DNA of 64,000 nt from the NCBI RefSeq assembly GCF_964355755.1, contig NC_092680.1, forward strand, positions 21,275,045-21,339,044, in the 5' to 3' direction. Below the pieces are notes generated by a model, which was not told where the DNA came from, searched no databases, and saw nothing but the letters and a program-made list of their open reading frames with translations. This DNA comes from Antedon mediterranea. Taxonomy: Eukaryota; Animalia; Echinodermata. Shown here one piece after another: positions 409 through 51,800 of this stretch. The position numbers were made by a program, and so were the translations under genes. Position 1 is the stretch's first letter. Each line of letters opens with the position of its first letter.

Positions 409-3400
409 TCATTCCACATGCCCTTCTCAGCACTCACTTTATTTATCACAGAGGACCAGGCAGAGAGGGATTCTGCTACCGCTTACAGTAAGTTACCTTT
501 TAGGCCTAATTCAATTAAAATTAAATTAATGGCTGCATAAATTGTGAACATTTGCATAGTACAATATCATTATTTCGATTCTATCACTCAAATAACGCTC
601 GTATTCAATTATGTTTCCAAAATGACACCTGTTTTGTGCAATTGTTTGAATCGAAGATATACTACACAATTTGCATTTGTATGTTATCTTTGCGCAGAGG
701 CGATATCGTAGCCAATGAGGTTTATCCGAGGCGTGATTATTGCTAGTTGAAAACTTATCCCAATACCCCGCACAAGAGACGTGAAATATCGTAACTTGAT
801 GCAATGTTTGAACGTTCTAACGAACGAATTATGAAATAAAAACAGAATTTTCAATTGTCAAATGTGTTTGGTACACTTTATCAATTGTTTACAAATACGC
901 CAAGATGTTGTTTAACTTCTTCTATTAACTTATTTAGGATTTTAATAACTGAATATTCTATCAAAAGTACAACCAGGGAAGAGTGACATTGTAATTTCCT
1001 TCTTCCCTGGTACAACACACGTTGATACGAAAAAAATATATGTTGATAAAGCTTACGTTCTGCCGATAGTACAATAGAAATCTTAACTTTCGAAAGACAT
1101 TTGTAAAACTAAATTTGAGTTGCTCTCGTACCTTTGTTGACAGTATCTTTTTTCTGCTGTATTTTGATATGAAATTAGATACAATTGTATCAACTATAGG
1201 GAAACCGATAAAGTTTATTTATTAACTTTAAACATGACATCATTCATGATGATACCATATTCAAGTTCACACAATGACACCTATATTGTGCAATTGTTTA
1301 AATAGAACATACTACACGATTAGTATTTGTACGTTATCTTTGCGCAGAGGCGATATCATAGCCAATGAGGTTTATCCGAGGCGTGATTATTGCTAGTTGA
1401 AAACTTATCCCAATACCCCGCACAAGAGACGTGAAATATCGTAACTTGATGCAATTTGTAAACGTTCTAGCGAACGAATAACGAAATAAAATCAGAAACT
1501 ATTCATGAAAAACTTGTCTTTTTAGGAATGGCAAGCGAGGTAGCAGGAACCTTACTTGGAAACATAATAATGGGCCAAACCGTGTTTATATACGTTAAGA
1601 ACTCGGGAGAATCAAGAGATTGTTCGGGAAATGCTACAGAAGTTCCACAGGAAATTATTGATGCTGAGGTAGAATAGAGATATCAAAAATAATCACTAAA
1701 TGTCTTTTTTTTGTATAAATTCTAAATAAAATGGTTCGTCAATCCCATAAAGGTTAAGACAATATGTACTAAGGTCAATGCGTACAAAGTCGATCTAATT
1801 TAAAACTAATTCAAGCTATCTCTCTCTGATACAATGTGAGGTGATTTTTTCAATTAATATAAGTGAAAACATTAAAATTATGCATAATAAAATGTAAAAC
1901 TTCCCTAAAAAATTATCAATATGTACTGTGGAATGAAGAAGCTTCAAATATACAGTGCTAATTGGTTTAAGCTACGTCGCAGAACTGCATGTCTTCTTTA
2001 CTATCAATTGAAATAAACGAAACTCGGTTACTTTGTAGATTAATGTTACATGCACTTGTTTCATTTCTTTCAGATAAAAGGGTATATGACTGGAGCTGGT
2101 ATAATATCCGGGTTGTTTTTAATTTGTGCAGTTATTGTTCTTGCTGGAACAACAGAAAGAAAACGTAAGTTAGTACTGTACTATTTGTTTTACTTCAGAG
2201 GCAAAATATCATTTTAATACAGTATGATGTAATGAAGTGTACATTTGTCAATGATAAATTCCACTAAAACCTTGTTTTTCATTACAGCAAACGAAAAGAT
2301 AACACAGAGAGAAGAACCTCTCCGTAAAGCTGTGGGGAAAGTCTTAACATTTGGACCGTACATTAAGCTCACTATGGCTTTCCTATTTTTCTCCTTATGC
2401 ATTCAGGTATGATCAATAGGCCTATCATCTGAAACAACTTAATAGTTTGTATTTATAATGTTTTGTGTGTTGGTTGTTTGGTAATAACATAATAGTGAAC
2501 TATTTTATATGGTAGTAACATAGAGAAATAAGTTATGATTTCAATATTGAGAGACTACACGGGATTAAAACGGGATTAACGGGATTAAAACGTAAATATA
2601 AATAATAAACATCAATATATAGACACTATAAACAGAGGTTATTTAAATATCAGATTTTAAAGGCCACTTGAAGACAATATTAACACTGTAGATCAAGTAT
2701 TAGACTGTAAAAGTGTATTTATTTGATACCAGATTGTCAAAGATTTTGTAAATCTGAGTTTAGTTGAAGTTTAATTCTAAAAATCTATTTGGATTTCCCG
2801 TATTGGGGAGGTGAGGAGAGGAAGAAAACAGTGGGAAGTGGTGTGTGTGTACATTATTACAAAGCAGGAAACAAGACAAACTATACTTGATTAATATTTG
2901 ATAATACTCAAAAAAAAAGGTATGTTCTATTGTTTTCCATTGTATTCTTTTTTTACAGTCAATACAAGGAAACCTTGCATTGTTCCTGAAATACTCACTG
3001 GGCGTGGACGACTACCAGTACGTCATTATAGCTATTCTCGTAAGTATTGTCAAAGTCACTAAAACGTGGTTAAGTTTAAAAAAAATAAAACAAATATAAT
3101 AATGACCCATTGTTAATAATTAGTTTAAATTATGGATATTTGAAATGAATGAAATATTAAGGCGTGCAATCATTTTAAATTCGTGTTGCATGTTTTAATC
3201 TTTATTTCTAAAAACGACACTTATATTTTGCGATTATCTCTATAGAACATATACTACACAATTTGTGTTTGTAAAGTATCTTTGCGCAGAGGCGATATCA
3301 TAGCCAATGAGGTTTATCCGAGGCGTGATTATTGCTAGTTGAAAACTTATCCCAATACCCCGCACAAGAGACGTGAAATATCGTAACTTGATGCAATTTG

Positions 3401-6234
3401 TGAACGTTCTGACGAACGAATAATGAAATAAAAACAGAATTTTCAATTTAAAAATGTGATTGATACATATTACCGATATGTTTACGCAAATACTAAGATA
3501 TTGTTATACATTTGGAAATTCAACTGCGGTGAAAATGATCATTTTTTAATGATCTAGTTTGAAGTGTAATCTTAATTTAGCTCTGCTCGGCAGCCCGCCC
3601 TGCGTCATTTTTGCATGCTCTTTTTTCGTGTAAATGTTTGCAGAAATGGCGTCTCATGGTAGGAATTTCTTATTACAAAAAAGGACATGAAATATCGTAA
3701 CTTGATGCAATTTGTAAAAGTTGTAACGAACAAAAAAATCATTATTTTGTTCGAAATACATATTTATGCGAAAAAGTATGTTGAGTTACGTTTTACAGTA
3801 ACAGAAAAGATTCAACCGTACAAACAGAAACTATTTTTTTTTTCTAAATTCTTTATTCTTAATAGCTGGATATCCAATAATTATTTAAATAACAATGAAC
3901 TTAACCATTACATACATTCATGATGATAGATCAATGTGTTCAAGTTCATAAAATGACACTTATATTGTGCTATTGTTTGAATCGAACATATACTACACAA
4001 TTTGCATTTGTAAGGTATCTTTGCGCAGAGGCGATATCATAGCCAATGAGGTTTATCCGAGGCGTGATTATTGCTAGTTGAAAACTTATCCCAATACCCC
4101 GCACAAGAGACGTGAAATATCGTCTCTTGATGCAATTTGTGAACGTTTTGACGAACGAATTATGAAATAAAAACAGAACCTGTTCTATAATAACTTCTAT
4201 TTGCATATTTGCAGGTGTCTGCGTTTCTTTCAATGCCCATATGGCAACATGTGCTTTTAAGATATGGAAAGAAGAAAGCATTAGCGATTGGAATGACGGT
4301 AATGTTTTGAATATAATATATGTTCTTTGATAAAACCCTAAAAAATCTAAATAATGTTCTATACGTGAATCATCACCCAGGCTAATAACTATACAGTAGT
4401 ATATACCATTAACAAAATAAAAACGTACAGATGATAAAAAGTAAACTTTTTTAGATTATGAACGTTGATTTTATATTTTCTTCTTGCGTCGTGTTTGTTG
4501 ATTTGTATTATATTTCGTACAATGTATCTTTTGTCTGAATATATAATTATAAATCTCTATGTATTATTATTATTATTATTATTCTAGGGTACATTTCCAG
4601 TGCTGATCACATGGGCGTTTCTGCCAGAAGGCACTCTTTGGGCAGTGTATGTTTTATCTATTGTGGCGGGAAACTGTATATCTGTAGCACAACTTCTTCC
4701 ATGGTAAGACAACTTGCTATGCATGGTCTCAACGTGGTTGCTATGCATGGTCTCAACGTGGTTGCTATGCATGGTCTCAACGTGGTTGCTATGCATGGTC
4801 TCAACGTGGTTGCTATGCATGGTCTCAACGTGCTTGCTTTTATCATGCTTTCTTTGTATAATATATTGTTTCATTTTTTGTATCCAATGTTTTTTTACCG
4901 TTTGTTTACTGGGATATATCGGCAGTGAGCGCAGAATCGTTAAACGGGACCTTATCATAATTATGACTCCTGGTTATTTGTTCATTGGTGACCAATATTA
5001 TCAAATGTTATCATTATTTAATTGTTTCAATCGAAGAACGAATCGTCGCCACTAAAATACTACCGTATGCTTAGGATAAAAACATAAAAACCGAAAACAT
5101 TACCTATTTATTGGTGATTCTCAGTTACTAATATTGTGCTAAACTATTTTACCTTTGTCTTTAGGTCCATGATTCCAGATGTAATTGATGACTTTGTATT
5201 GAAAACTGGTGAAAGCTATGAAACTATATTTTACTCATTTTACGTAATGTTTACAAAGTTTGCCGCTGGATTATCATTGAGTCTATCAACACTTTTGTTG
5301 GGGTAACTATAATAATAATAATAACTATAATAATAATAACTATAATAATAATAATAACTATAATAATAATAATAACTATAATTAAAACTATTCCTTCACA
5401 TACAGGGAGTCACAGACAGGTGGTTTGGTTCACGACAAAAGAAAGTGTTTTACGTATAATGGGAATTTAAAATGTCGAAAATAAAAACCGACTAGGCCTA
5501 TCTATAGTTGAGTTTTTATAGTATAGGCGTTAATAGAGATATTAAAATCGTGAACCTGATATATATTTTCTAGTACACAAAAACCAGTAATATTAATATA
5601 TTATGTTTAGGCCTACCATAATTTTGTTTTGCTAGAGTTGCAGGGTATAAAACTGGATCATGCGACCAGCCAGAGTCAGTTAGTAAAACTCTTCGGTTGC
5701 TGGTAACGGCATTACCTGCTGGTTGTGTGTTAATAGGATTTGTATTTCTATGGTCGTATCCGATAACGGAAGAAGTACGGTTAAAGAACAAGACAATTAT
5801 GGAAATTTGGAGGTATGTATGTTGCTGTTACTCTAGCATTGTACTGGCTTGAATCCTTTACGTTGTACCTTGTTGTATGAATAACGATACTATCGTATCG
5901 TATATTTTAGGATCCTTCAAATATTTTTGAGAAAGTTGGAATAAAGTTTGGTTCTCTCAATTCTGGACGCAACGCACACATTGACCAATCAAAGTTGATG
6001 GATTGACTAAGGTTGCGTACTAGTGGAAACTAAAATATGAAATCCTTTCTTTGATGAATAAAAAAGTTCAAAAATATTTGTGTTTTAACTCAAAAGATAC
6101 ATTTCTTTCATATATGTTTTTGTTTATACTGCAGGGATGGTCGAGATGATAAGAGGCGAGTTACAGTAAGAAAGGCAACCATGTCGCGGTCTAGGACTCG
6201 GTCATACCGCACTCCATCCACAACACTCATGTAA
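409..6234 (+). CDS. MFSD2A: MFSD2A/B-like sodium-dependent lysophospholipid symporter (MFS, MelB-like), 5'-partial; 10 coding exons
   Basis: Exons 409-487, 1526-1668, 2074-2164, 2288-2406, 2959-3039, 4215-4298, 4588-4703, 5165-5302, 5636-5812, 6135-6234 (TAA). All have GT-AG boundaries with consistent phases (375 aa + stop). Peptides SFHMPFSALTLFITEDQAERDSATAYRM, GPYIKL, LLPWSMIPDVIDDF, ETIFYSFYVMFTKFAAG and YPITEE match recalled MFSD2 motifs. N-terminal exons lie upstream of the window; A vs B paralogue not resolvable. Confidence 0.93.
686..826 (+). ncRNA. U4: U4 spliceosomal snRNA, copy 1 (intronic; Sm site variant AATGTTTG)
   Basis: ATCTTTGCGCAGAGGC (U6 stem II), k-turn 5' stem-loop GCCAATGAGGTTTATCCGAGGC, stem I TGCTAGTT, GAAAACTTATCCCAATACCCCGC, central stem-loop, terminal hairpin CGTTC-TAAC-GAACG; 141 nt. 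Confidence 0.93.
1274..1296 (+). promoter_or_regulatory. Putative snRNA proximal sequence element (PSE); homologous blocks start at 622, 1274, 3214, 3953
   Basis: Block A(T/C)GACAC(C/T)T..(A/T/-)TTGTGC-like conserved at -62 to -64 of all four U4 copies, the position where Pol II snRNA PSEs sit; function inferred from position and conservation. Confidence 0.6.
1336..1476 (+). ncRNA. U4: U4 spliceosomal snRNA, copy 2 (intronic; Sm site AATTTGTAA)
   Basis: Same U4 landmarks as copy 1; terminal hairpin CGTTC-TAGC-GAACG; ends 49 nt before MFSD2 exon 1526. Confidence 0.93.
3278..3418 (+). ncRNA. U4: U4 spliceosomal snRNA, copy 3 (intronic; Sm site AATTTGTG)
   Basis: Same U4 landmarks; terminal hairpin CGTTC-TGAC-GAACG. 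Confidence 0.94.
3683..3731 (+). pseudogene. U4 snRNA 3' fragment
   Basis: GACATGAAATATCGTAACTTGATGCAATTTGTAAAAGTTGTAACGAAC matches the last ~48 nt of the neighbouring U4 copies; the 5' two-thirds are missing and the terminal hairpin is degraded. Confidence 0.8.
4017..4157 (+). ncRNA. U4: U4 spliceosomal snRNA, copy 4 (intronic; perfect central stem, Sm site AATTTGTG)
   Basis: Same U4 landmarks; central stem CAAGAGACG/CGTCTCTTG perfectly paired; ends 57 nt before MFSD2 exon 4215. Confidence 0.95.
4714..4838. repeat. 24-bp minisatellite, ~5 copies
   Basis: Unit TTGCTATGCATGGTCTCAACGTGG, starting 10 nt into an MFSD2 intron. Confidence 0.95.
5304..5382. repeat. Interrupted (AAT)n microsatellite
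   Basis: ACTATAATAATAATAATA-type units directly after the donor at 5303. Confidence 0.9.
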
Positions 6235-7063
6235 AAACCAACTCACTCCTACTCTAGGGTTAGGGTTAAAGAAATAAATAATAGATAAACAAGTTACATT
6301 ATAATATATCGAGTTGTATTTCTTCTGTTTGGTTTGTCTAGGCCTACACATCGACAGCCAGTAACATGAGCCTCTAGGCCTACAGATCTTGTATTATCAA
6401 ATCATGTATATATATCGAAATGTTGTAAAAAGCGAAATGTATAAGAATAAAAAAATCCAATACTCGTCTCTGGCGCTGTCATAAAGAAATCAGTGAGTTT
6501 TTAGAATTGACTTGAAACTTTGATGATGATTAAAACAGTGCAAGGTATCCGATGTCGACATTTCAACTTTATTTTAAAGATTTGATTTTTAACTTAATAT
6601 TTTACACTTTCTAGATGTCACTTTTATCATTATAAGAATTGCTATAGAATTACATGTTGATTTTGTATTATTAAAATTGTTAAAAAGAGTATAGAATATT
6701 CATAAATGTTATTATTTTAAAGATTAAAAAATACATAAATCCATCTAGTTCGATACGTCTCTACATATATTATTTGATTTCGATATTTTTATCATTTGCT
6801 AAAATTGGTACTGTACAATTTCACAAAGAGTTTAGGCCAAATGAATGTTGAGATTCATTTTTAACAAACCAATTGCAATACAAATTTATACACATTTTGT
6901 TTTACACGGAAATTACTATATTATCTGTAAATTAAACAGACTGACCTCTTGGGTGAAAAAAAACCAGGTGAACATTTACACGAGTTGAATAATACAATTA
7001 ACATTAAAGAGTAGCTAGCTCTGAATTTAACATTTCTATTGTTTATGACAAACTAAACCTTTG

Positions 7064-7304
7064 CAGCAACAACCCCACTTAGTATACCTATACGCGTCGT
7101 CAGCGCAACAACGCCACTTAGTATACCTATACGCGTCGTCAGCGCAACAACCCCACTTAGTATACCTATACGCGTCGTCAGCGCAACAACGCCACTTAGT
7201 ATACTTATTATACGCGTCGTCAGCGCAACAACCCCACTTAGTATACTTATACGCGTCGTCAGCGCAACAACCCCACTTAGTATACTTATACGCGTCGTCA
7301 GCGC
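7064..7304. repeat. 39-bp minisatellite, ~6 copies
   Basis: Unit CAACAACCCCACTTAGTATACCTATACGCGTCGTCAGCG with small variants; lies downstream of the LITAF stop codon. Confidence 0.95.
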
Positions 7305-7497: not shown

Positions 7498-9818
7498 TCA
7501 CATTTTGTTATGTCGGCCCAAGAGTGTCTTGCAGTTTGGACATCTGTGTGATACGTCTTTAAGACCATCGATAAACAATGGAACGAGGCAGCAGCAGAAG
7601 ATCCATAATCTGGAATTAAAATGATCACAATTGGGTGAAATTAAATACGTATACCGTACGAGAGTGATGTGATACTTTGTTATTGTTTTTTTCTGTTCTT
7701 GTATATCTCAGAGAAAACATAATTTCTATGTTTTTTTATGTATACAACAACATTTATTCAATATTCAATATTTTACAAAGTTTATGGGTTAAGATACACA
7801 GAAGCCAAAGTGGCTTGTCTTTGTAGTCCTAAGCATAAACATAAAACATATTATACGGACGCATTACATTAACAAAAAATGACATTTTGAGACAGAAAAA
7901 AAAAAAAAAACACAAACACAACAAAGTGATATTAAGCTAAATGTTTACAACCCCAATTTTGCAGTAGCAATAGTAGCTAGCAATATGTTTCAAATATCAT
8001 CTTTTTAATATTGTACTTCAGCATAGGGAGTGAGGTCATGTGATTTTGGAATGTATATATGTATATTGTATATGCAAATGAAAATAAATGGAAGTAAGTT
8101 CCATTGATGAATGAATGAATGAATGAATGAATGAACCGTAAAAGTCTATGGCTTCCTAAATAATAATGGATGCTTTTACATTTGATTGCCATGTAACTTA
8201 ACCAGTGTAATGGATAACCATGTTATGTAAAGGCATGTGTGCAGGTTCAGCATGTGTTTCCACAAAGAAAAGTATAAAGAAAAGTTGAGTGTGTCTGCAC
8301 GTTTCGGTTGATGCTACAATTTATTTTAATGATACTCCACCAAGAAAACTAGTCCACAAGAAGACTGTTTGTAGCATAACAGTAGGCCTACAGTCTGGAA
8401 AAATCTGAATAATTTTTGCAAAAATAGGACGAAAATTTATATAAGTCAATCCTAGGTCATATCGAAAGATTCTGTGTAAATAACGAAAGTAATACTTTAC
8501 CCCATTAATATCAGAATGATAACACAGAGGTAAACAAGACCACCATTACTATACTCGACCTCTGTCAAGATGTTGCTCTGACAGTGTGGACATTTCATCT
8601 GCATAGGATAATCACAAAACGCTCCAACTACATATTGCTGAGCTGAAGAACAAAGAAAGAGGAAAAAGGAAAAGTCAGGGCGAAATGGCAAGAAGCTTCC
8701 TACTTTCTAGGAGTGTTATTTATCAGATAGTCTGTATAATTTTGACAACTCTTGTAACATTACACCAGTGCTAATTTTGCCATTTTCCCCCTAAGAGGAT
8801 TGGATATGAAGATTACGTCATCACACATCAATAATAATTATTATATAAAAGTTAAAATCACAGCTTTAATCTATTGATTCAGTAAGGGGATTGTTTGTAT
8901 TTTTTTTTAATTCTGGAAAATAAATAATTGAATTGAGGGGCAACCAATCTAAGGCGATAAATGGCTTAAATCTTCCAAATACCCACTCTTCGACTAGCTT
9001 TTTTCATTTATTATGACCAAAAATAGTCTTATACACCCTTCATTGGCAGCGGATATTATGAAAAAGGAGATATATATCACTATTGAAAGTGAGCCCCTAT
9101 TCGAGGGATATTCCTACTCTAATGCTTGGTTCCCACTGCAGAGGCAACATAACGTAATGTAAGCAATTTGACCAATCTTGTGTCGTGCGCACGTCCTTGC
9201 GTTGCGTCCTAGTGAGGGAACCAAGCTTTTGGTTTGGATGATCCTACTGATTATGCGCTCAATAACAATGCTCTGGATCTTACTTGGTGGTGCTGTGTTT
9301 CTTATGTTATAAGTAGACTCTTCATAGGTTGGTGGTGGAGGTGGCATAACAAAGTTCGTTTGTTTATTATAATCCACGGTATTAGCCCCTGGGCCAGTAG
9401 CTCCGTAACCGGTGTATTGTGGGGCTGTATAACTAGGTGGAAGTTGACTCTGAGTTGGAGCAGACGGCACATTGGTTGTTGGTGGTGGGCAGGTTGGAGG
9501 TGGGCCAGGAGTTTGGGTAAATGACACTGAACCAGATGGATCAATCGGATACGGAAGGTTTGTAGTTGTTGATTGTCCAGTAATGTCGGTGTCCATTTGT
9601 CCATCAGTCGGATAAGGAAGTTGAGACTGAGTTAAAGACATTTCAGGCGGCTGGTCAAGAACTACATTGGGTACTCCTTCTGGAGGCAGTGATGGTACAA
9701 CACTGGGAGGTGCTAGAAGAGGGGACGTCTCGGGGAGTGAACTAGGAGTCTGATGGGCAGTGACTGGTACTGGGACTGTATTCAAAACGTCCGATGAGTT
9801 AGCGCTTTCATCGGCCAT
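7498..9818 (-). CDS. LITAF: LITAF/CDIP1-family zinc-ribbon membrane protein (262 aa); 3 coding exons
   Basis: Exons 9818-9284, 8642-8501, 7609-7498 (TGA), phases 1 and 2 consistent. Pro-rich N-terminus with PSAP, PPSY, PPTY; LITAF domain CPHC...hydrophobic stretch...CCCLVPLFIDGLKDVSHRCPNC. Confidence 0.93.
9121..9228. mobile_element. MITE family A (TIR ~AAGCTTGGTTCCCACTAG..ACGCAACGCAAGGACGT)
   Basis: Inverted termini GCTTGGTTCCCACT / AGTGAGGGAACCAAGC. Related full or partial copies near 5943-6033, 10816-10862, 22275-22503, 32953-33164, 36196-36330, 46753-46900, 48234-48315. Confidence 0.75.
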
Positions 9819-12120
9819 CTTGAAAACTAGGAGTATCTAGTACACGCTGAATTCTAAAGAAGAAATGTTAGATTTAATTACGTGAGACAAACTGAATTGA
9901 CTATAAAAACTATACTTTTTCTTCATGCTATATAATAGTAAATTTGGCAGAATACTAAAAAATGTGCTTTTTTGCCAAAACCATACTCTATTACATGTTC
10001 ATACATAACAAATTACATAACATATCTAGCCAAAAAAGGAACCACGCAGCCCAAAATAATTTGTTACGTCACGTTAATGGTGGAGACAAAACATGAGATA
10101 ATAAACAGTATAAAACATGTACACAATAACAAATGCCATTTAATTGGATGAATGACTTCGTCACTTTTTATAATCTTTAAATACAGGGACGTAATGTTGA
10201 ATCGTAACAACCAGGACCAGCCAATGTTAGTTCTATCAATGCTAATATTTACGAACCTTAAATAACAAATAAAACCACTGAATTACATAACTCTATTGAA
10301 ACATTATTACCGTCTTTGAAAATATATTAAACTTATCAAAGTGTAACATTATGGTTAGATCACAGTATACCTATCTTTATTCCCATAAATTATTACAGGA
10401 AAAATTATTATACCAGATACTTACATTGTTTTGTTAACGAAATCCTAAAATTTAAGTACGTGATGTTGGATATTGTTTGCAATATGGACTAAGTACAAAG
10501 TGCATCATCTCGTGTAAACACAGAGATATGGATAACAAAATATGTAATTAATAAGACAAAATGAGGGAGTTTTTCATTGTTTGTTTGAGTGTCATCATAC
10601 AGGACACGAGTTAATGACACGTATTATATCTTGGTTCCAACTTAAACGCAAACACAACGATGTGAAAATACGACGCGCGCGTTGATCATTCGAACTGTCA
10701 CTTGTGATTTTGATTAATTGTAATTTTCTTCTATGGATGATGTAATTGTGAATGTTTCTGTCGAGGAAAACAATTTTTCCATGTACACATTTTATATATG
10801 GAACAAATAAATATTTGATTGGTCAACTCACTTCGCGTTGCGTCAACGTCATTGCTGCGTCAAATGAAAAAGAACTACTCACACAATAAAACCCCAATAA
10901 CTAGAAATTGTTGATATAAATAATTTTATTATAAAAAATATAAAACGTTTAGTTCGAATGTACCGTAACATAATCCACAATTAAACCCGTACATGCGTCT
11001 TTTATTTTTGCAGTACTGTACTTTAAAAAATCTAAACCGTTAAAATGCTTATGACATCATCAGATCAAAATCCCCACTATTATTTTTTTCAGTGGTTTTT
11101 TCTTTGGATACATATTATTCCACTACGTTGGCAAGACTTATAATTTCATTATAATCGGAGAGTGAAAAAATACAATTTATTAAGTATACATTACAAAACT
11201 ATGGACTATTAAAGTTGCAGGCGCAAAAATATGAAACAGTTTACCAATTAATATTAAATCGGCACCAACAATTACGTCTTTTAAGGCTAGATACAAATCT
11301 CATTTCTTTTCATAAACACTGTATCATATTTAATCAAGTTTCTCTTTTGTATATTTTTGATTAAGACAGGACCACAATGTAAAACAGATACACTGTTATC
11401 TGATTGTTTTATCCTGTATAAATATATTATTTATTATTATTATTATATGCATTAATTATATTTTAATTATGCTTTACAAAACAGGTATATATTCTTAAAC
11501 TAGTGTATTAGAATACACTTTATATCAAAAGCACATTTTAAATGACTTTAAATAGTCACAATATACAGTACACTGCGATGATATATGAAATGTTTTAAAT
11601 AGTCAAATAATTACCCTGTCGAAAGTTAACTACAGTATAAAAATAACATGTGGCGTGGAAATGTACCTGTAAAATATTTTAAATGAGGTAGCAAATAAAG
11701 TTACTGTAATATTTTTAATGCACTTTAAAAGTGTAAAACTTGATGGTCAACATCAAATGATGATATAAAAATAGCATAGCATGTTTATTTAAAAGGAGAA
11801 GTTTTGGGAAATTGTAATATCTACATGTTATTTTTTTTAATTTGTTAAGTTATGAAAAAATACTGTCACTTTAAATTTATAATCATAAAGTATTTCTAAA
11901 AACCTGGTTATCACATGTTTATCATTCAAAATGTAACATACAATGAGGAATAAAACTGAAAGAAATAAATAAATAATTGTCAAGTTTTAGAAAGTCAAGG
12001 CGATTAAAGATTACTTATTAGAACTATATAAATATTACATTTGTCTTGTTACATCATCATGCATAAATGTACAATGTATCTTGATGAATGTAGGCCTATT
12101 TAATTTATAACTGTTTAAAC

Positions 12121-18700: not shown

Positions 18701-20687
18701 AAGATGATCTGGATGCCTTACAAGAAAGAGAAGCACAGCTTAAAAAGTTAGAGGTATGTGTACAATCACTTAAATAATAATAACTACATCAGTTAAACAC
18801 CCTCACCACCATCATCATTGCATTTTTAAGTTTCTCTCTCTTGTGGCAGCAGGTACAGTACATTTGCCCTTCAAATATTTTATAGTTAAAGTAGAATAAA
18901 GTTACTAAGATTGTCATTTTATTGTGTTTATTTACAGTCAGATATTTTGGATGTAAATCACATTTTTAAGGATCTTGCGCATATTGTCCATGAACAAGGG
19001 GAAATGGTCGGTAAGTAGTAAAAACTGTGTCTCCTTCACCTGCCATTCCAAAAGGTCTATCAATGACTGCTGTGACTACCTGGTATCCCAACTCACCTGC
19101 CATTCCAAAAGGTCTATCAATGACTGCTGTGACTACCTGGTATCCCAACTCACCTGCCATTCCAAAAGGTCTATCAATGACTGCTGTGACTACCTGGTAT
19201 CCCAACTCACCTGCCATTCCAAAAGGTCTATCAATGACTGCTGTGACTACCTGGTATCCCAACTCACCTGCCATTCCAAAAGGTCTATCAATGACTGCTG
19301 TGACTACCTGGTATCCCAACTCACCTGCCATTCCAAAAGGTCTATCAATGACTGCTGTGACTACCTGGTATCCCAACTCACCTGCCATTCCAAAAGGTCT
19401 ATCAATGACTGCTGTGACTACCTGGTATCCCAACTCTGTTTAAGCTATACACAGGCTAACCCATCCAGCCTGACAAAGTAATGCCAGTTGATATTCAGAT
19501 GTCCTCTTAAATTGCCAGTTGATATTCATAGATTTTTGAAATTTCAATACAATACATAATAAAGAACAAAAGAAGACTTCAAATAAGTCTTGGTAAGCAA
19601 TCGGTTAAATATTAATTTTTTGGTTCGTTTTGTAGATAGTATAGAAGCAAATGTAGAGTCATCAGAAATGCATGTTGAACAAGCTAATGTACAGCTACAC
19701 AAAGCCAGAGATTATCAGGTACTCTAGCACTATCTATTATTGTTATTCTCTGTTATATAAATGTTTATATCGACTTGAATTTGGCCAAGACGGTTTGGGG
19801 CCGACTTGACCTGCACCCAATATAAATATCAACAATATAGAGTATCACGGTGTGACATCACAACAATAAAGGGCGCTAGCCAACCAAAAAATGTGTTCAA
19901 CTCTACTATGTTGATAAACAGTAAAGATCTGTATTTCTATCAAATTGTGTATTTTTTTTTTTTTTTAAACTGTAGTTGGAAAATAAATTGATTATATATA
20001 TTATTAATAGAACAAATGTTTAGTGATCTTTTGAAATTTTAGTTTGTTTTTATTGAAAACTATTAAGTTTTAAAATGACTACTTCAATAAGCCTATTCCA
20101 AACCATTGGTGACCTTGGAGTCACTCAGGCAGGATGAACGCAGCGCCACCTACCGTTGTGACGTCAGCACCGTGATATTCTATAGTTGCCCCTAACTAAG
20201 AATTTAAATAGTCTGTTTAATATGCAGTTTCTAAATTGTTACCACATTTTAAAACTTAAGTTTGTGCAATATAGTGTGTATACTCTATATATGTTTTATA
20301 TTTTCTATTATTATCTGTTTTTTATCGTACTAATATTTACCAATCCAAGATAAATTTCTATTGTTATTTTATTATGATTATGGACAAACATTTCATTATT
20401 CATAAGACAACTTTGGCGGTTATGATATGTGTACACATTATTAACTTGTACACTATTCACGCAAGTATTGAACATTCAACAATAAAACAAAGAATTATCA
20501 GTGGTGGCAGTGACTTTAACTCATAAACCAAGAAATAAGTAGCTCTTTTATTTCCAGTTTTTTCACTAAATATATTTTGTTTTATTTACAGAAAAAATCA
20601 AGAAAGAAAATGTGCTGTATATTTGTTTTTTGTATTGTTCTGTTAGCTATCATTGCGCTTGTTCTGTATTTAACACTCAAACCATGA
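15706..20687 (+). CDS. STX7: Syntaxin-7/12 family Qa-SNARE (281 aa); 10 coding exons
   Basis: Exons 15706-15769, 16123-16197, 16690-16759, 16980-17073, 17757-17906, 18142-18188, 18660-18753, 18938-19010, 19636-19718, 20592-20687 (TGA), 846 nt in frame. Habc peptides IGSNIQKI, TNQLAKDT, QKERLTNDF; SNARE motif [34 protein letters not shown]; C-terminal KKSRKKMCCI + TM anchor. Confidence 0.95.
16418..16599. mobile_element. Degenerate MITE-like foldback element
   Basis: Imperfect inverted termini GGTCTTTCGCACTTGTTC / GAACTGGTGTGAAAGACC plus internal CAAATCAAA / TTTGATTTG. Confidence 0.55.
19036..19436. repeat. 57-bp minisatellite, 7 identical copies
   Basis: Unit TCACCTGCCATTCCAAAAGGTCTATCAATGACTGCTGTGACTACCTGGTATCCCAAC in a syntaxin intron. 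Confidence 0.97.
19836..20184. mobile_element. MITE-like element with ~40-bp imperfect TIRs
   Basis: TATAGAGTATCACGGTGTGACATCACAAC.. versus ..GTTGTGACGTCAGCACCGTGATATTCTATA. Confidence 0.65.
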
Positions 20688-24574: not shown

Positions 24575-27500
24575 TCAGACCTCAGATGTCATTTCTGATT
24601 CGTGTTTTCCTTCTTTCATTCGTTCAATTTTTGCCTGTCGTACCTTCTCAGCGTGTCGTTGTTTCTGTTTTAATTTCTCCTTTAATGCTTCCATTCTTGC
24701 TTTCCTATTTTCTGCCGCCTTGTCTTGGGTAACATCTATTTTTACTTCCAATTGTTTCTTTTGAGAACGTTCTGATTCGTCTAATGCTGTTTGGACTTGA
24801 ATTTCTTTTCTCGCTGTGTTCAGTCTTTCTATCATTTCTGCTTCTTTCTTCTGTAAGATAATTAAACAAATAAAATTGTTACAAATTAACAGTTTAAAAA
24901 ATAAAACCTAATGCAATATTGTACCAAAACAAAAGGTGATCAACTTGACAACCAACAATTATTGGTTTATTTATTTTTTATTTATTTATTTATTCTTTTT
25001 ACGGTATCTTAATTAATGTAACTAGTCTTTAGTGGGCCTCCTATCACAAGCCCCTTGGGGTTTCTTGGAGGTCCCTTTCATCGTTAAAATATGTTTTACT
25101 CCTTGCTTGCTTTTGTTTGTTTATGAGATGAATAAAGCGATTTATGTTATGTTATGTTAATTATTGATAAGTAACATTTGCATACCTTTCTTCTTTCCTC
25201 TGCAGCTTGTATTTTAGCGTCAATTTCCTCTTTAGTCTTCTTCGATTTCTTCTTTTTCTTCTTTAACTTAGCTAGTCTCGGTGGTGGTCTTATTTGCTTG
25301 TTTTCTTCACTTGAGTCTAAATTAACTTCGAATGCTAGCCCTCCACCAAATCTTGAAGCTGGTCTGGTTACAATCCCCTGACTTTGGAGTTCAGCAAGGA
25401 TGTCAGCGCTTTCTTTGTTTCGTCGTTTTCCACCACTTCGTTTTCTTGCTTCTATTTGAGTGCCACTCACCATAAATTCTACAACAAAATGATAACATTC
25501 TGATTAATTTTACATTTATCATAAGCTTTTTTTCCCCTAGGATAAAATTTAGGAACGTACGCGATAGGCAAGCAATAAGATTCAAGATTCCTTCTTTTTT
25601 TTTTTCAATTTTGAAATGGAAAAAAAATATTTCAATTACATCTAAAAATAATGATTCTAAATCCTTCAAGAAAACGATTTATTACAGAACTTCTTTTTTC
25701 TTTGTTATACGAAATTTAAATTAAAAGAAGAGACAATAGGTGATAATAAAGACTTAAATCAGGCCCAACTTTTAGAAACATGCATGTTTTAAGAAACGAA
25801 ATCTTTTTATTTTATACATACCATTTTAAATTACATTGTACAATAAGCTAAAAATGTTTTTCGCGTTGAAAGAACTTTCTTCTTAAAGTGCTTTATTAGT
25901 TGTGAAAAACACTATTTTTATGTTATATTGACAGATAGTTAAGTTGACTTTAATTGACACTGAACATTGAAGTGACGTCATTAATAAGTAGAACTGTTTC
26001 TGACACTTGTAATAATCAGTGCATATATTGATTGTTTAGTGTACGTGTACACATACAGGTGTATTTAATAACCCAACACTTTGTAGGAGGTTATCTATAA
26101 TTAGTAATTATTTTATCAAGGTTATTATCATTTTAATACAGATTGTTTCTAAGGCGACATAACATTAACTGGCTAAAGTAGTTTTATCCTTGTCAATAGT
26201 GACGTTTTCGAATATTTAACTGCATAGATATTTCATAAAACATACGTACGACCCGTACATTACAAAGATTGATTTAAAGATGTATTGTCCCCCAAAAACA
26301 GAAATGAAGATTAATTAAATTAGACTTTGAATACGTTATTTTCTAGTTTTAATAAAGTTAATCACTTCCGTAAAAAAAACGGGGAAAATAATGTTTTCAC
26401 TTATAAAATGACAAAATGTATGGTTAAATTCAACCAAAAACCCATTGGCTGGCAGCCAATTTGACCATGTTTGCTTTAAATTACAGTTTTTTCAGGTAAA
26501 TACATTTTGTTATCATCCAATTTTTGATCAAAGTGGATAACTATTATGATACATTAAAATGGCATATTCAACAAAAAATTGTTAAGAATTATTTTTTTCA
26601 GGGGGACAATACATTTTTAAAGGTATCAACGTTATAAAAATATACTTAAGTGTTTTGTTTGGATGCCCATGCTTTATGACCACTCTACAGAAGTTATAAA
26701 ACCACCAAATACCAAGCAATGTAACGCTGTATTTTAATATAACCAACAAAAATGCTGAGCCATGATAATGTAAATATTTGACATTTTCGTAATATATACA
26801 TTTTGGTGTGATTAATTAATGAAGGATCCCAGAGGTAGCTAACATTGTGTACATTGTACCGTTAGGATGATTGATCTGTGCCAATCTTTTGTATTATCTG
26901 TTTGCCTTTATTGTGTCTTAACACTGGGCCTTAGTGACGTAAACATTGTTGTTATTATCTATTGACAACCAGTGAAGTACGAAGGAATAGTATATTGGAT
27001 TATAGTACAATAATCCCGCAGGTGTTTTTTGGGGATTTTTTATAACAATTATTGCAAATTCTGAAAAACTTATAAATAATAATTTACGTCATTAAAAAGT
27101 TAAAGAGCTAAAAATAGGTTGATAAAGAGAAAACAAAACGGGTTTGGAAACTGTTATCGTGTCTTTTCTCTTCTCGATTTTAAATTAATTAATCTAAAGT
27201 AAATTGTGAGTTTAGGTCGATGAGAAGGATTTGTTGGTCCCTTATACAATTAGGCTTTAAACTAAATTGTGTGTTGCTTACCTGGTGTGGGAGGTCGATT
27301 CTCTTCTTCCACGGTTTTAATCAAATTCGGATCACATGATTCCGTAATAACATGAGCATAGTCTGCTTCTAACCCACTATCAAATGTATGAGTTGAAGTT
27401 TTACTTGTTGCAGACGAAATACCTCTATTTACCGGTGTTCCATCAACTACAAAGTCATTTTGATTACTGTCTTTCTGCACGATAATTTCAGTTTGAGGTG

Positions 27501-27657
27501 GCTGCTCCTTAGTGACGTCAGCATCTGACTTGTTCTTGGGTTTAACACGAACTAAATTTGAGTTTGGACGACCTTTCTTGGAAGTGGGCTTATTAGAGGA
27601 CCAAGCGTCGCTACTAGATCGTGGTTGTATATCAACTTTCGAACTATTACATCCCAT
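24575..27657 (-). CDS. STMND1: Stathmin domain-containing protein 1-like (~314 aa); 3 coding exons
   Basis: Exons 27657-27282, 25478-25186, 24850-24575 with consistent phases. N-terminal MGCNSSK acylation motif; ESADILAELQSQGIV, GLAFEV, RPPPRLAKLK, EIDAKIQAAEERRK and AAENRKARMEALKEKLK resemble recalled STMND1/stathmin motifs. Confidence 0.85.
26274..26620. mobile_element. TTAA-flanked MITE (Kolobok/piggyBac-like), copy 1
   Basis: TIR TTAAAGATGTATTGTCCCC / GGGGACAATACATTTTTAA; inverted homologous copy at 37768-38083. Confidence 0.75.
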
Positions 27658-27964
27658 GTTACCGGTAAACTATCTTCTTTTCTTCAAAACCTGTATAAAA
27701 CCAGTTAATCCTCACAGATTTATTACTTTCGCAATATTAAGTTTCGTACTTAAGTACAATTTACGAAGTGTATTCCGTGTGAGCACCAAGTCCTATAACA
27801 ATATGTTAAAACGCACGAATTCGATTTCTATACTGAGATATATCCGTTGTTTGGTTGAATTCAGTTTGTGAAGTGACCTACCATCTGATTATCTGACCCA
27901 TTTTAATCGGTCTTGTTCCGCTGATTCCATTGTAACTACGTAAATAATCCCTGCATGGCATTCG

Positions 27965-28723: not shown

Positions 28724-30073
28724 AGTGAGTTAGGCAGAAAAACAAAACAAAAATTATGACTTAGACACTTTTGTTATGAGGCTGTCAATATCATCTATAT
28801 ACAAAAAATGCTACCTTTAAGTAACAAAATTTATAGCATCAGCTCTTCAGATTAAAATTAACACTGATGAATTTAGAAAAGGAAAGTAGCAATAAAAGAG
28901 AAAGAATTTGTAACAAATGGGTTAAAAAATATACTATAAAAATGTATTTCTTATTTTATTAAAAAAATCATGAGTCTCCTCTCCTTAATTGCCTAAGTCA
29001 CACAGCTGACTTAGGCAGAAACACAAAAAACGATCTGAGCATGTGCAAATGTATATAAAAGCACTCAGATAATGTACAGAGGGCAGTATAATGATATAAG
29101 CAGTGAGTTAGGCAGATCATAAGTCAGCTCTCCTTAATTGCCTAAGTCACAATGCTGACTTGGGCAGAAACACAAAAAATATAGTATATTGATATAAGCA
29201 GTGAGTTAGGCAGATCATAAGTCAGCTCTCCTTAATTGCCTAAGTCACACAGCTGACTTAGGCAGAAACACACAAAATATAGTATATTGATATAAGCAGT
29301 GAGTTAGGCAGATCATAAGTCAGCTCTCCTTAATTGCCTAAGTCACACAGCTGACTTGGGCAGAAACACAAAAAATATAGTATATTGATATAAGCAGTGA
29401 GTTAGGCAGAAAAACAAAACAAAAATTATGTCTTAGACACTTTTGTTATGAGGCTGTCGATATCATCTTTATACAAATAATGCTACCTTTAAGTAACAAA
29501 ATTTAATAGCATCAGCTCTTCAGATTAAAATTAACACTGATGAATTTAGAAAAGAAAAGTAGCAATAAAAGAGAAAGAATTTGTAACAAATGGGTTAAAA
29601 AATATACTATAAAAATGTATTTCTTATTTTATTTAAAAAATCATGAGTCTCCTCTCTTTAATTGTCTAAGTCACACAGCTGACTTAGGCAGAAACACAAA
29701 AAACGATCTGAGCATGTGCAAATGTATATAAAAGCACTCAGATAATGTACAGAGGACAGTATAATGATATAAGCAGTGAGTTAGGCAGATCATAAGTCAG
29801 CTCTCCTTAATTGCCTAAGTCACACAGCTGACTTAGGCAGAAACACAAAAAATATAGTATATTGATATAAGCAGTGAGTTAGGCAGATCATAAGTCAGCT
29901 CTCCTTAATTGCCCAAGTCACACAGCTGACTTAGGCAGAAACACAAAAAATATAGTATATTGATATAAGCAGTGAGTTAGGCAGATCATAAGTCAGCTCT
30001 CCTTAATTGCCCAAGTCACACAGCTGACTTAGGCAGAAACACAAAAAATACAGTATATTTATATAAGCAGTGA
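28724..30073. repeat. ~672-bp tandem duplication containing nested 98-bp hairpin-bearing subrepeats
   Basis: Large units start at 28724 and 29396; subunits start at 29093, 29191, 29289; each carries TGCCTAAGTCA-CACAGC-TGACTTAGGCA. Confidence 0.93.
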
Positions 30074-48800: not shown

Positions 48801-51800
48801 TCCCGTTTTAAAATAGTTCACACATTTTCATTTGTTTGTTTTCATTTTACAACCCGGATTATACAATATATTTATATACATGATAAAAAAAACAATAATA
48901 ACTCAGTACCACCAGTAACCCGTATCACTGTAATTCTTTTTCGGTTAATCGTATCAAATTAGAAATTATATTATCATAATCTTATTTCTTAAAGCTACCC
49001 ATTTTTCTATACTTGTTTCTTTATTGTTATATGTTTCACATTCAATGTTATATAACATATTGCTTTTAAATGAATTCCATAAAGATTTACCCACTGGCTT
49101 ATTTAGTGCAGATAACATTTTTATTCTATAAATAGTAAATGCTGCAAAAGTGTAAATATAATCTATTAGCTTATCTCCCGTTCCTAGTATTAATTGTTTA
49201 AATGATATATTATTGTGATTTAAACTTACAAAGATACTAAGCATTTTCCTCCAATATTTCTGAATAAATCTACAACTAAAAAACAAATGATTTTCATTTT
49301 CAATTTCTCCACATTTGTCACACGTTTGTGTACTTGTACTGTACGTGAGTGTATTGCTTCCTGGATATTGTATAGCTATTGTTTTTTTACCATAACATCA
49401 TGAATATTCATGAGCTTTGAAAACAACAAAGATGGTGTATGGTAGCTATTCTGTCGGTCTAGACTGTAAGGTGACATATTTTAGATATATTATTCTTTAA
49501 TCGTAACGTCGAATATTAACGTTCAGATGGAATGGCTCATAAACAACAAATCAACTACTAATGACAGTATCATATATCCAATTGTGTAAAGTGGTTAGAG
49601 AAGAAACATTCCATTTCATTGGCTTCATTTGCTGTTTTCAATGTAAATTGCTTGCTTTTTTAAAGTGAACAATTCCCTTTGTTTTCTCGGTATTTGTAGG
49701 GAAGAGTGAATTTCACTGTCTGGTTATACGCACTTGCACTACTTTCTGTAGGATTAGGCTACGATAGACATTTCTATACCTCCATGATATTACACCGTGT
49801 GACTATCTCTATTGAGGCTGTCACAATGTTTAGTTTTTCTACATTTTTTGGAAGATTCATCCAATATAGGCGATAACATCTGCCAGGTATAACTGTGATG
49901 CTTCATTATACATTCATAATGACAACAATATCAATTAGAATAGGGGATGTGTCGAATAATTGCTATGTGAAATAATGTACATAGTTCAGACGGGTAAGCA
50001 GACTTGAAAGCTAAATGGATTGAATTCTGCTGACAAGTGGTTTGTTACGTCACAGGTTTTAGATTATGTACATTGTAGTGCTTGGATTTGTCGTGTGAAT
50101 GAACTGTATTGTCTACTGTTAGTAGGCCAAGCCTTCCGATTTCGCCACCATCTTTCATATATTATTATAATACCACATAATCAAATATATAATGGATGTT
50201 TTATTTCTGTAATATTCAAGATTGGTGATAATAGGTATCGGCAATCATTGATTAGTAAACATGATGATTAAGGAGTTTGTTTTCGAATTCTGGTTAATTC
50301 TGGTTGAATATTAATAATCCCGGTTCTTTGAGAGTGGTTTACACGCAGTAGTTCACGCGTTCCTCCGGGCGTTCTCTTGATCAATCGTCTGCTTTAATAC
50401 AATTTTAATGTAAAAAGATTCGTTTAATTCTGAGATTAATTTGTTTTCTTTTTTGACATTGATTCATGTCAAGTGAATAAATGAAAAATCGTTGACAAAT
50501 TTGCATATCTGTTAAGTCATTTGAGGTTTAGCCAATAGTGGGGTTGATTTAATGCACACGCGCAACTCTAAAATTAGGATGATGGGAAAATTATACAAAC
50601 AAGATTTGTTTCAAGAATATTCTGTACAGATCTGATTTGAAATGTATGCATGCGATGTCCGGCTTGGGATCTCTATTTATCGAGCATCCATCAGTGTTGA
50701 AAGAAACTGAACTGATTGTATACAGCAGTATACCAATACCTGAACATCGATTATAATTTGGACACTTGCTCTTCTAGACATTGTTACATTTGTAGTTTTA
50801 AAAAAATATCCAGACATTATTAATAAAACTTAAGGTGTCATCCTGCGATAGCTATCTCGGTGTAGAAGAACTGCATCAAAAGTTAAACGCAGTAATACAC
50901 ACCTTGAACTTCCTGTGGCAACACACGTTGAAGGATGAGCGGCTTACGAAGGCTGAGTGAAATCGTGGATATAGCCAGAAGAGCTTATATTGGAGGGTTT
51001 CAAACAAGAATCGAAGCTGAAGAGGCTATGCAATTGCATTCATCCGCTCGACAATCCAACGCTACTACTAATTCTGATATCGAGATGGTTGACGGATGGG
51101 ATGATGTTTTAAATGATGCCTATATTTTAAAAGTAATGTATGGTGATTTTATTTTTATGTTTAATGATCAGGTAATGGTCAGTGAATGTTATTGACTGGT
51201 TTGCTTAGAGTATTAAGGTATATTTGAGTTCCGTATTTCATTTGCATGCCAACTTACCGGTAACGTGTGTAAAGTTCTATGACCTATTCAATTCAAAATG
51301 TAAAAATGTATGTTAAGTCAAATTGAGACTGCTGGCATTCAACAAAGAATGTGACGTAACTGTGCGTAGTAAAGGCCCGCATGAATGCAAAACGTTGACA
51401 AAATTGTGGTTTATTTGTGTATTTCAATTGTCTGTTATCACTAATTTTAAGGCATCGGTTTGGTTCGAATCTTATGTTATCATTTAGGACATTCTAACGG
51501 TATTGCTTGTGAAGTGACTCGATGATCAAACTGGTTGTAAATTACACGACACTATTTGTTCAGCTTGAGCTATTAAAACTAGCTAGATAGTTTACACAGG
51601 TACTATTAACCTATTAACAAAGTGTGGTAAAACCATGTTTATATATCGTAAAATGAATCCGAACGTTTGGTCACAATATATCGACCGCGTCTTGTCTATA
51701 GAAACAAAGAGTTAAGAGGGCAAAGAATGTATTTCAGCAACTGTACCTTACCGGAAGAATTATTCCTCCATGGATGTACCCTCGTCGACGGAGCAAAACT

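What the first reader, a model, noticed from the sequence alone, without database searches (positions are those of the whole stretch)
686..4157. Cluster of four U4 snRNA genes nested sense-strand in introns of an MFSD2 transporter gene
Seen: four 141-nt near-identical blocks (686, 1336, 3278, 4017) and a 3' fragment (3683). They carry the U4 landmarks: U6-pairing stems I/II, the 15.5K/Snu13 k-turn loop, an Sm-like site and a terminal hairpin. The RNA bodies differ at only a few positions while flanks are clearly diverged, and homology extends ~64 nt upstream and 20+ nt downstream. Established: spliceosomal snRNAs are normally independent Pol II units using a PSE and 3' box, and retrocopies lack the flanks. 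Inference: these are maintained genes rather than retropseudogenes, hosted co-directionally in a protein-coding gene. They could be independently transcribed, or less likely released from host introns.
Basis: partly seen in the sequence, partly recalled or inferred. Interest (0 to 1): 0.85.

Follow-up and report, generated by a model that had tools for sequence, protein, structure and literature searches.

The report
Four U4 genes inside transporter introns
Four copies of the gene for U4, a small RNA of the splicing machinery, lie in two introns of a lipid-transporter gene of a feather star, each with its own likely promoter and end signal, so they are most likely ordinary self-contained genes nested in another gene, an arrangement already known for other small nuclear RNA genes.

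Summary
Real, but a known kind of arrangement. Four full U4 genes (Rfam 108-117 bits, cut-off 46) lie at 686, 1336, 3278 and 4017, with a 51-nt 3' fragment at 3684. They sit two per intron (488-1525, 3040-4214), on the same strand as an MFSD2-like gene. The ten exons match an Antedon mediterranea protein exactly, and one low-depth, probably RNA contig splices out the second intron. Every copy has a conserved 67-nt upstream block and a 3'-box-like word 12 nt downstream, with no poly(A) tail. This fits independent Pol II snRNA genes, not retrocopies or intron-released RNAs. Flank similarity shows that a two-gene unit was duplicated between the introns. A close relative appears to have the same layout at two positions. 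Copies 686 and 1336 carry Sm-site changes and may be weak variants. Expression was not shown. Intronic snRNA genes with their own promoters are described in humans and C. elegans, and this scan earlier noted a sense-nested U6 in another genome. The compact four-copy layout is the only unusual part; it may be the species' main U4 locus (weak hint only).

The parts
619..685 (+). Conserved upstream block of copy 1 (likely PSE-type promoter)
   Evidence: function inferred from position
686..826 (+). U4 copy 1; variant Sm site (G at n.121, U at n.123); 2x2 internal loop in the 3' stem
827..848 (+). Conserved downstream block with 3'-box-like word at +12
1269..1335 (+). Conserved upstream block of copy 2 (2-nt deletion)
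1336..1476 (+). U4 copy 2; A for the Sm-site G at n.125; ends 49 nt before the intron's last base
1477..1498 (+). 3'-box-like block of copy 2
3211..3277 (+). Conserved upstream block of copy 3; also present in organism B
3278..3418 (+). U4 copy 3; Sm site AAUUUGUGA
3419..3440 (+). 3'-box-like block of copy 3
3684..3734 (+). U4 3' fragment (nt 93-143) with no upstream block; closest to copy 2 (46 of 51); pseudogene relic
3950..4016 (+). Conserved upstream block of copy 4
4017..4157 (+). U4 copy 4; best score, fully paired 3' stem, Sm site AAUUUGUGA; ends 57 nt before the intron's last base
4158..4179 (+). 3'-box-like block of copy 4
488..1525 (+). Host intron holding copies 1 and 2 (GT..AG, phase 1)
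   Evidence: gene-model match; joint not seen in reads
3040..4214 (+). Host intron holding copies 3, 4 and the fragment (GT..AG, phase 0)
   Evidence: spliced joint in one X5 contig
409..6236 (+). MFSD2-like host gene, last 10 exons (409-487, 1526-1668, 2074-2164, 2288-2406, 2959-3039, 4215-4298, 4588-4703, 5165-5302, 5636-5812, 6135-6236) = residues 147-521 of P0001; the 5' part lies before the window

Best explanation
Four U4 snRNA genes lie in pairs in two introns of an MFSD2-like gene on the same strand, and they likely work as self-contained RNA polymerase II genes that use their own upstream block as promoter and their own 3'-box-like signal for 3'-end cutting, independent of host splicing. 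Shown: the U4 identity, the positions, the host exon chain, the conserved flanking blocks, and removal of intron 3040-4214 in one contig. Inferred from established snRNA biology: SNAPc binds the upstream block, the transcript is capped at +1, Integrator cuts near the 3' box, and Sm assembly and pairing with U6 follow; the U4-like stretches in the host pre-mRNA would be discarded with the intron. Inferred history: tandem duplication gave a two-gene unit, which was copied into the second intron before the split from organism B. Since then the RNA bodies have been held by selection, probably with some gene conversion. Copies 3278 and 4017 are the likeliest main producers; 686 and 1336 may be weak variants; 3684 is a relic.
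For: Full-length U4 at 108-117 bits in 4 of 4 copies. The upstream block is conserved in 4 of 4 and stops at about -67; a profile of it finds only these four places in the window (E<=2e-18; next best E 0.47). The 3'-box-like word lies at +12 in 4 of 4; chance is 1.1% per 35-nt window (motif recalled). No TATA-like word at -40..-20 and no A-run of 8 or more after any copy. Positions -4..-2 vary between copies while nt 1-107 are nearly invariant, a sharp edge at the RNA's start. 4 of the 9 variable body positions keep the fold (G-U/A-U at n.23, C-G/U-G at n.132, loop n.134-135). In organism B (runs X6, X8, one study) a contig joins exon 2959-3089 to the upstream block from 3201, a contig on that block runs on into U4 5' letters, and in X8 U4 3' letters lie before 1486. 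In C. elegans, intronic ncRNA loci with the PSE-containing motif are expressed independently of their hosts (PMC1474057, passages).
Against: No read evidence for any U4 transcript. The upstream block is assigned as promoter by position and conservation only; no echinoderm PSE sequence could be read for comparison (not held). 5 of the 9 variable positions are not clearly neutral: n.108-109 open two pairs of the 3' stem in 3 of 4 copies, and n.121, 123 and 125 are in the Sm site. Gene conversion can also keep dead copies alike. The splice joint rests on one contig of depth 4 with 28-30 letters on the short side, below the tool's 31-letter bridging mark, from a run whose RNA nature is a guess. 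The genome could not be searched for other U4 loci.
Confidence: 0.82

Rival explanations
1. The copies are silent or nearly silent duplicates (promoter-bearing pseudogenes), and the working U4 genes lie elsewhere in the genome.
For: Sm-site changes in 2 of 4 copies, an opened 3' stem in 3 of 4, and a true relic at 3684. One of three Drosophila U4 genes is barely expressed (PMC4291461, passages). No expression shown here.
Against: nt 1-107 almost invariant while flanks drift. The same layout appears in organism B, whose pieces are about 83-94% alike. In run X1 the depth over 3220-3275 is fully explained by 3 contigs (85.7 expected and observed), whose flanks match window copies 3278, 4017 and 686 by eye.
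Confidence: 0.08
2. The U4 genes have their own promoters but are functionally coupled to the host: four snRNA promoters and 3' boxes in the path of host polymerase attenuate MFSD2 transcription, or the copies close to the acceptors affect use of exons 1526 and 4215.
For: Copies 2 and 4 end only 49 and 57 nt before 3' splice sites. Integrator also attenuates protein-coding transcription (PMC7614299, passages). Interference between intronic motif loci and hosts was proposed in C. elegans. The Anneissia model lacks exactly exon 4215-4298.
Against: No data on host levels. The host frame is intact and the intron is spliced in X5. A sea-cucumber model also lacks most of that exon (2 of 14 models), which points to annotation gaps or a general skip. 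The like spacing to the acceptors needs no separate cause if the unit was copied whole.
Confidence: 0.06
3. U4 is released from the excised host introns by trimming, as intronic snoRNAs are.
For: Same strand as the host; two copies end near the 3' splice site; U4 has a k-turn.
Against: Two copies per intron; copies 1 and 3 end 699 and 796 nt from the acceptor. The conserved block upstream of +1 would have no role. Intron-released RNAs are uncapped, whereas snRNAs are capped (PMC6619189, passages). [quoted passage not shown]
Confidence: 0.03
4. Assembly artefact or retrotransposed copies.
For: Near-identical repeats can be mis-assembled; retrocopies of U4 are common in human (PMC8457000, passages).
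Against: Each copy has distinct flanks. Contigs of X1 and of organism B carry different copies' flanks (X1 may be the window's own source). Upstream blocks are kept; there is no A-tail and no flush target-site repeat (longest shared word 4-8 nt).
Confidence: 0.01

Closest known systems
U4 spliceosomal snRNA, Rfam RF00015
   Same: Full model matched in 4 of 4 copies: U6-pairing regions, k-turn stem-loop, 3' stems, Sm site at n.118-126, the same numbering as human RNU4-2 (PMC13484765 Table 2).
   Different: Sm site has a G among the Us where the Rfam consensus has an unbroken U run; two copies deviate further.
[quoted passage not shown] RNU4ATAC in CLASP1 intron 2 (PMC13484765, passages)
   Same: Functional spliceosomal snRNA gene nested in a host intron; the paper says that many snRNA genes are.
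   Different: Here it is the major-spliceosome U4, with four copies in two 1-kb introns of one host. The strand of RNU4ATAC relative to CLASP1 was not stated in the passages seen.
C. elegans intronic ncRNA loci with upstream motif UM1, which holds the PSE (PMC1474057, passages and reference list); Drosophila U7 (its ref. 27, not held)
   Same: Intronic snRNA loci with their own conserved upstream motif, expressed independently of the host and far above it.
   Different: Expression was measured there, not here; no four-copy U4 cluster in one host appears in the passages seen.
Small multigene U4 families with a dominant and a near-silent copy (Drosophila U4:39B, 38AB, 25F; PMC4291461, passages)
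   Same: Few copies, sequence variants, probable unequal use.
   Different: The fly copies are dispersed (by their map names); here all lie in 3.5 kb of one gene.
Intron-encoded snoRNAs (PMC6619189, PMC3089462, passages)
   Same: Sense orientation in host introns.
   Different: These have no promoter of their own and no cap, and usually occur one per intron; here there is a conserved upstream block and two per intron.

Membership tests
U4 snRNA (RF00015) | Covariance score above the gathering threshold over the whole model | tested here: met
   107.9-116.5 bits vs 46, model 1-138, 4 of 4
U4 snRNA (RF00015) | U6-pairing stem I and II segments and k-turn 5' stem-loop | tested here: met
   Match to the Rfam consensus in the alignments; pairing with this species' U6 not tested, as no U6 is in the window
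U4 snRNA (RF00015) | Sm site between two 3' stem-loops | tested here: inconclusive
   AAUUUGUGA in 3278 and 4017; altered at n.121/123 in 686 and n.125 in 1336; Sm binding not testable
Independent Pol II snRNA gene | Conserved proximal element about -65 to -45 without a TATA box | tested here: met
   67-nt block in 4 of 4, no TATA-like word at -40..-20; positional evidence only
Independent Pol II snRNA gene | 3' box shortly after the RNA end | tested here: inconclusive
   The AAARNNAGA half (recalled motif) lies at +12 in 4 of 4, chance 1.1%; the U-rich 5' half of the vertebrate box (recalled) is not present, and the copies are not independent
Independent Pol II snRNA gene | Capped transcript starting at +1, made independently of the host | not testable with these tools
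   No listed holder on record as RNA; no raw reads
Intron-nested gene | Lies between exons that are spliced together, same strand | tested here: met
   Exon chain equals XP_071964218.1 residues 147-521; joint 3039-4215 in one X5 contig; joint 487-1526 by gene model only
Intron-released RNA (snoRNA-like) | No promoter of its own, usually one per intron | tested here: not met
   Conserved upstream block at every copy; two per intron
Retropseudogene | No promoter flank, A-tail, target-site duplication | tested here: not met
   for the four full copies; origin of the 3684 fragment not resolved
MFSD2 / MFS_2 (host) | PF13347 over full length, best solved relatives MFSD2A | tested here: met
   328.7 bits vs 27; four MFSD2A structures at E 1e-127 to 1e-134, melibiose permease at 1e-10; transport activity not tested

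The most novel reading that the evidence does not exclude
Feather stars keep their whole working set of U4 genes in two introns of MFSD2, and the two systems are coupled: snRNA promoters and Integrator sites attenuate or re-splice the host, or host passage selects which U4 variant (differing in Sm site and 3' stem) is made at a given stage. Host-dependent release of U4 from the intron is the extreme form.
Probability: 0.07. Interest if true: 0.7.

Novelty: new member of a known kind. Interest (0 to 1): 0.3.

Why it matters
As it stands, it is a useful annotation: probably the main U4 locus of a crinoid, a first estimate of a crinoid snRNA promoter and 3' box, and a compact case of birth-and-death evolution with copy-diagnostic bases. 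It is also a natural test bed for how a host polymerase passes four sense snRNA promoters and end signals without being stopped. It would matter much more if host and U4 output proved to be coupled, or if U4 were released from introns, for which the paper read (PMC1474057, 2006) knew no mechanism.

Tried and rejected
No whole genome is held, so no genome-wide U4 count was possible. Sequencing-run search: no RNA holder listed on record. Is the 3684 fragment a decayed full gene? Rejected: the stretch before it does not resemble U4's 5' part or promoter (679 and 871 of 1000 shuffles score as well). A matching relic in intron 488-1525 near 1027-1088 is borderline (51 of 1000 shuffles, 64 of 1000 background) and not claimed. 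Spacer-to-spacer homology between the two introns was not significant (175 and 965 of 1000), nor was the upstream flank of copies 1/3 (326 of 1000); the downstream flank of 2/4 was marginal (30 of 1000). So whole-intron duplication is not shown, only shared flanks next to the genes. Weak Rfam hits (CRISPR-DR2, SNORD78, a reverse-strand U6 piece, CrcZ; E 1.3-4.4) were taken as chance. No tRNA in the window. The metagenome scan gave 11 MFS loci, 2 with intron-like breaks (L001, L011), none a close orthologue; 0 of 11 has an Rfam hit, which is uninformative on age. Branch-point scan: inconclusive, no YTNAY before 2 of 9 acceptors, including 4214. Ten paper searches listed no paper on U4 genes in MFSD2 introns or in crinoids. 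The main surveys were not held (Marz 2008, Mount 2007, Deng 2006, Dominski 2003, Li 1996, Wendelburg 1992), so absence from print is not established. No supplements were read; locus tables there may list comparable clusters.

Full report
Observation. Rfam finds exactly four matches in the window, all full-length U4 on +: 686, 1336, 3278 and 4017, at 107.9-116.5 bits against a cut-off of 46. The terminal hairpin closes at nt 141. All 6 pairs are 134-138 of 141 identical; there are 9 variable positions, and only one lies in nt 1-107. A 51-nt piece at 3684-3734 matches U4 nt 93-143 (nhmmer E 4e-9) and has no 5' part or upstream block. It is closest to copy 1336 (46 of 51) and shares that copy's Sm-site change.

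Host. Ten exons from 409 to 6236 join through 9 of 9 GT..AG introns into an open frame. The 375-aa product is an exact substring (residues 147-521) of P0001, labelled sodium-dependent lysophosphatidylcholine symporter 1-like of Antedon mediterranea, XP_071964218.1. P0001 scores 328.7 bits on MFS_2, and its best solved relatives are MFSD2A. The window is therefore most likely feather-star DNA. Copies 686 and 1336 lie in intron 488-1525; 3278, the fragment and 4017 lie in intron 3040-4214. One contig of run X5 (RNA is the tool's guess; depth 4) covers 2849-3041 and continues with 28 letters that equal 4217-4244 by eye, a stretch unique in the window. That is the predicted joint 3039-4215, so this intron is removed. 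The evidence is a single contig, just under the tool's 31-letter bridging mark. The joint across 488-1525 rests on the gene model only.

Gene anatomy. All four copies share 67 nt upstream (50-60 of 67-69 identical; background 46%, maximum 63% in 300 random pairs) and 22 nt downstream (18-21 of 22); 121-200 nt upstream and 101-200 nt downstream, identity is about background. A profile of the upstream block finds only these four places in the window (the four match by construction, and the point is that there is no fifth). The A-rich half of the 3' box (motif recalled) lies at +12 in 4 of 4, against 1.1% of random windows. There is no TATA-like word at -40..-20, no A-run and no flush target-site repeat. 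Pol II snRNA genes use distal and proximal elements and give capped RNAs, while intron-released RNAs are uncapped (PMC6619189, passages). Insect PSEs are about 21-24 bp, differ between species, and often have a second block nearer the start (PMC1761439, passages), which fits a conserved block of lineage-specific sequence here. The sea-urchin promoter papers were not held, so the promoter assignment is positional.

History. Copies 686 and 3278 share downstream flank, and 1336 and 4017 share upstream flank (0 of 1000 shuffles and 0 of 1000 background windows each). First copies pair with first and second with second, so a two-gene unit was most likely duplicated; the middle spacers no longer align significantly. 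In organism B (runs X6 and X8, one study; pieces about 83-94% alike by the mismatch counts of table 8), one contig joins 2949-3089 to the upstream block from 3201, and a contig on that block continues into U4 5' letters. In X8, U4 3' letters precede position 1486, and the depth from there into exon 1526 is continuous by my arithmetic on table 2. That these pieces form one path is inferred, because the table was cut (17 pieces not shown). The layout thus appears older than the split of the two species, at two of four positions. That X8 loose end keeps the Sm-site G at n.125, so the A in copy 1336 is probably a recent change.

Copy quality. Four variable positions keep the fold (n.23, 132, 134, 135). 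n.108-109 open two pairs of the 3' stem in all but 4017 (-14.2 vs -20.2 kcal/mol for the 3' 60 nt; part of the gain in 4017 comes from a predicted pairing over the Sm site, a kind of fold reported for pre-snRNAs in PMC10584915, passages). The Sm site n.118-126 reads AAUUUGUGA in 3278 and 4017, and is altered in 686 and 1336. Human recessive RNU4-2 variants cluster at n.118-126 (PMC13484765, passages), and Sm-site changes go with poor Sm binding and faster turnover (PMC8457000, passages). So 3278 and 4017 are the likeliest main genes. Unequal use of U4 paralogues is known in Drosophila (PMC4291461, passages).

Is it the main U4 locus? This cannot be tested without the genome. One weak hint: in X1, which may be the window's own source, depth over 3220-3275 is fully explained by 3 contigs (85.7 expected and observed), and their flanks match window copies by eye. 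In organism B that bin is 2.6-3.5 times single-locus depth. Only contigs at least 80% alike are laid, copy 1336's block was itself missed, and the tool warns that depth is no copy number.

Comparison with what is known. [quoted passage not shown] PMC1474057 shows intronic C. elegans loci with the PSE-containing motif, mostly snRNAs or similar, expressed about 55-fold above their hosts and uncorrelated with them, and cites Drosophila U7 as an intronic snRNA with its own promoter. Ten searches listed nothing on this locus, but the main surveys were not held and no supplements were read.

Verdict. What is unusual is the density: four sense U4 genes in two 1-kb introns, two of them ending 49 and 57 nt before a splice acceptor, kept in a related species. 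Coupling to the host is not excluded (about 7%). Interest 0.3.

Noticed in passing
window 4215-4298: The Anneissia japonica model P0002 lacks exactly this 28-aa in-frame exon, directly behind U4 copy 4017; an Apostichopus model (P0010) lacks most of it; 12 of 14 models aligned have it. Assembly gap, annotation error or real skip is unresolved.
   Followed up: partly
window 2849-2958: The X5 contig that splices out intron 3040-4214 still holds 110 nt of the preceding intron: partly spliced pre-mRNA or a retained intron.
   Followed up: no
window 1528-1530: An in-frame ATG (Met174 of P0001) lies 2 nt into the exon behind copy 1336; read-through from that copy would enter the exon, but other ATGs lie upstream in the U4 and the spacer.
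   Followed up: no
window 1027-1088: Borderline likeness to the U4 3' end in the first intron (51 of 1000 shuffles), at a place analogous to the 3684 fragment.
   Followed up: yes
window 2140-2199: A short piece with depth about 740 in X1 against about 43 around it: a high-copy repeat word in the 123-nt intron.
   Followed up: no
window 4714-4838, 7066-7304, 19036-19436 and others: Many minisatellites (24 nt x5.2, 39 nt x6.1, 57 nt x7.0; 28 rows in all), and two near-identical 98-nt arrays at 29085-29410 and 29758-30073.
   Followed up: no
window 9114-9836 (-): 240-aa proline-rich open frame with a PPxY-like word (label recalled), probably a coding exon; no Pfam hit.
   Followed up: partly
window 27262-27669 (-): Open frame with MGCNSSK near its start, resembling an N-terminal acylation motif (recalled); no Pfam hit.
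   Followed up: partly
window 48966-49397 (-): Weak zf-RVT hit below cut-off (E 0.003): likely relic of a non-LTR retrotransposon.
   Followed up: partly
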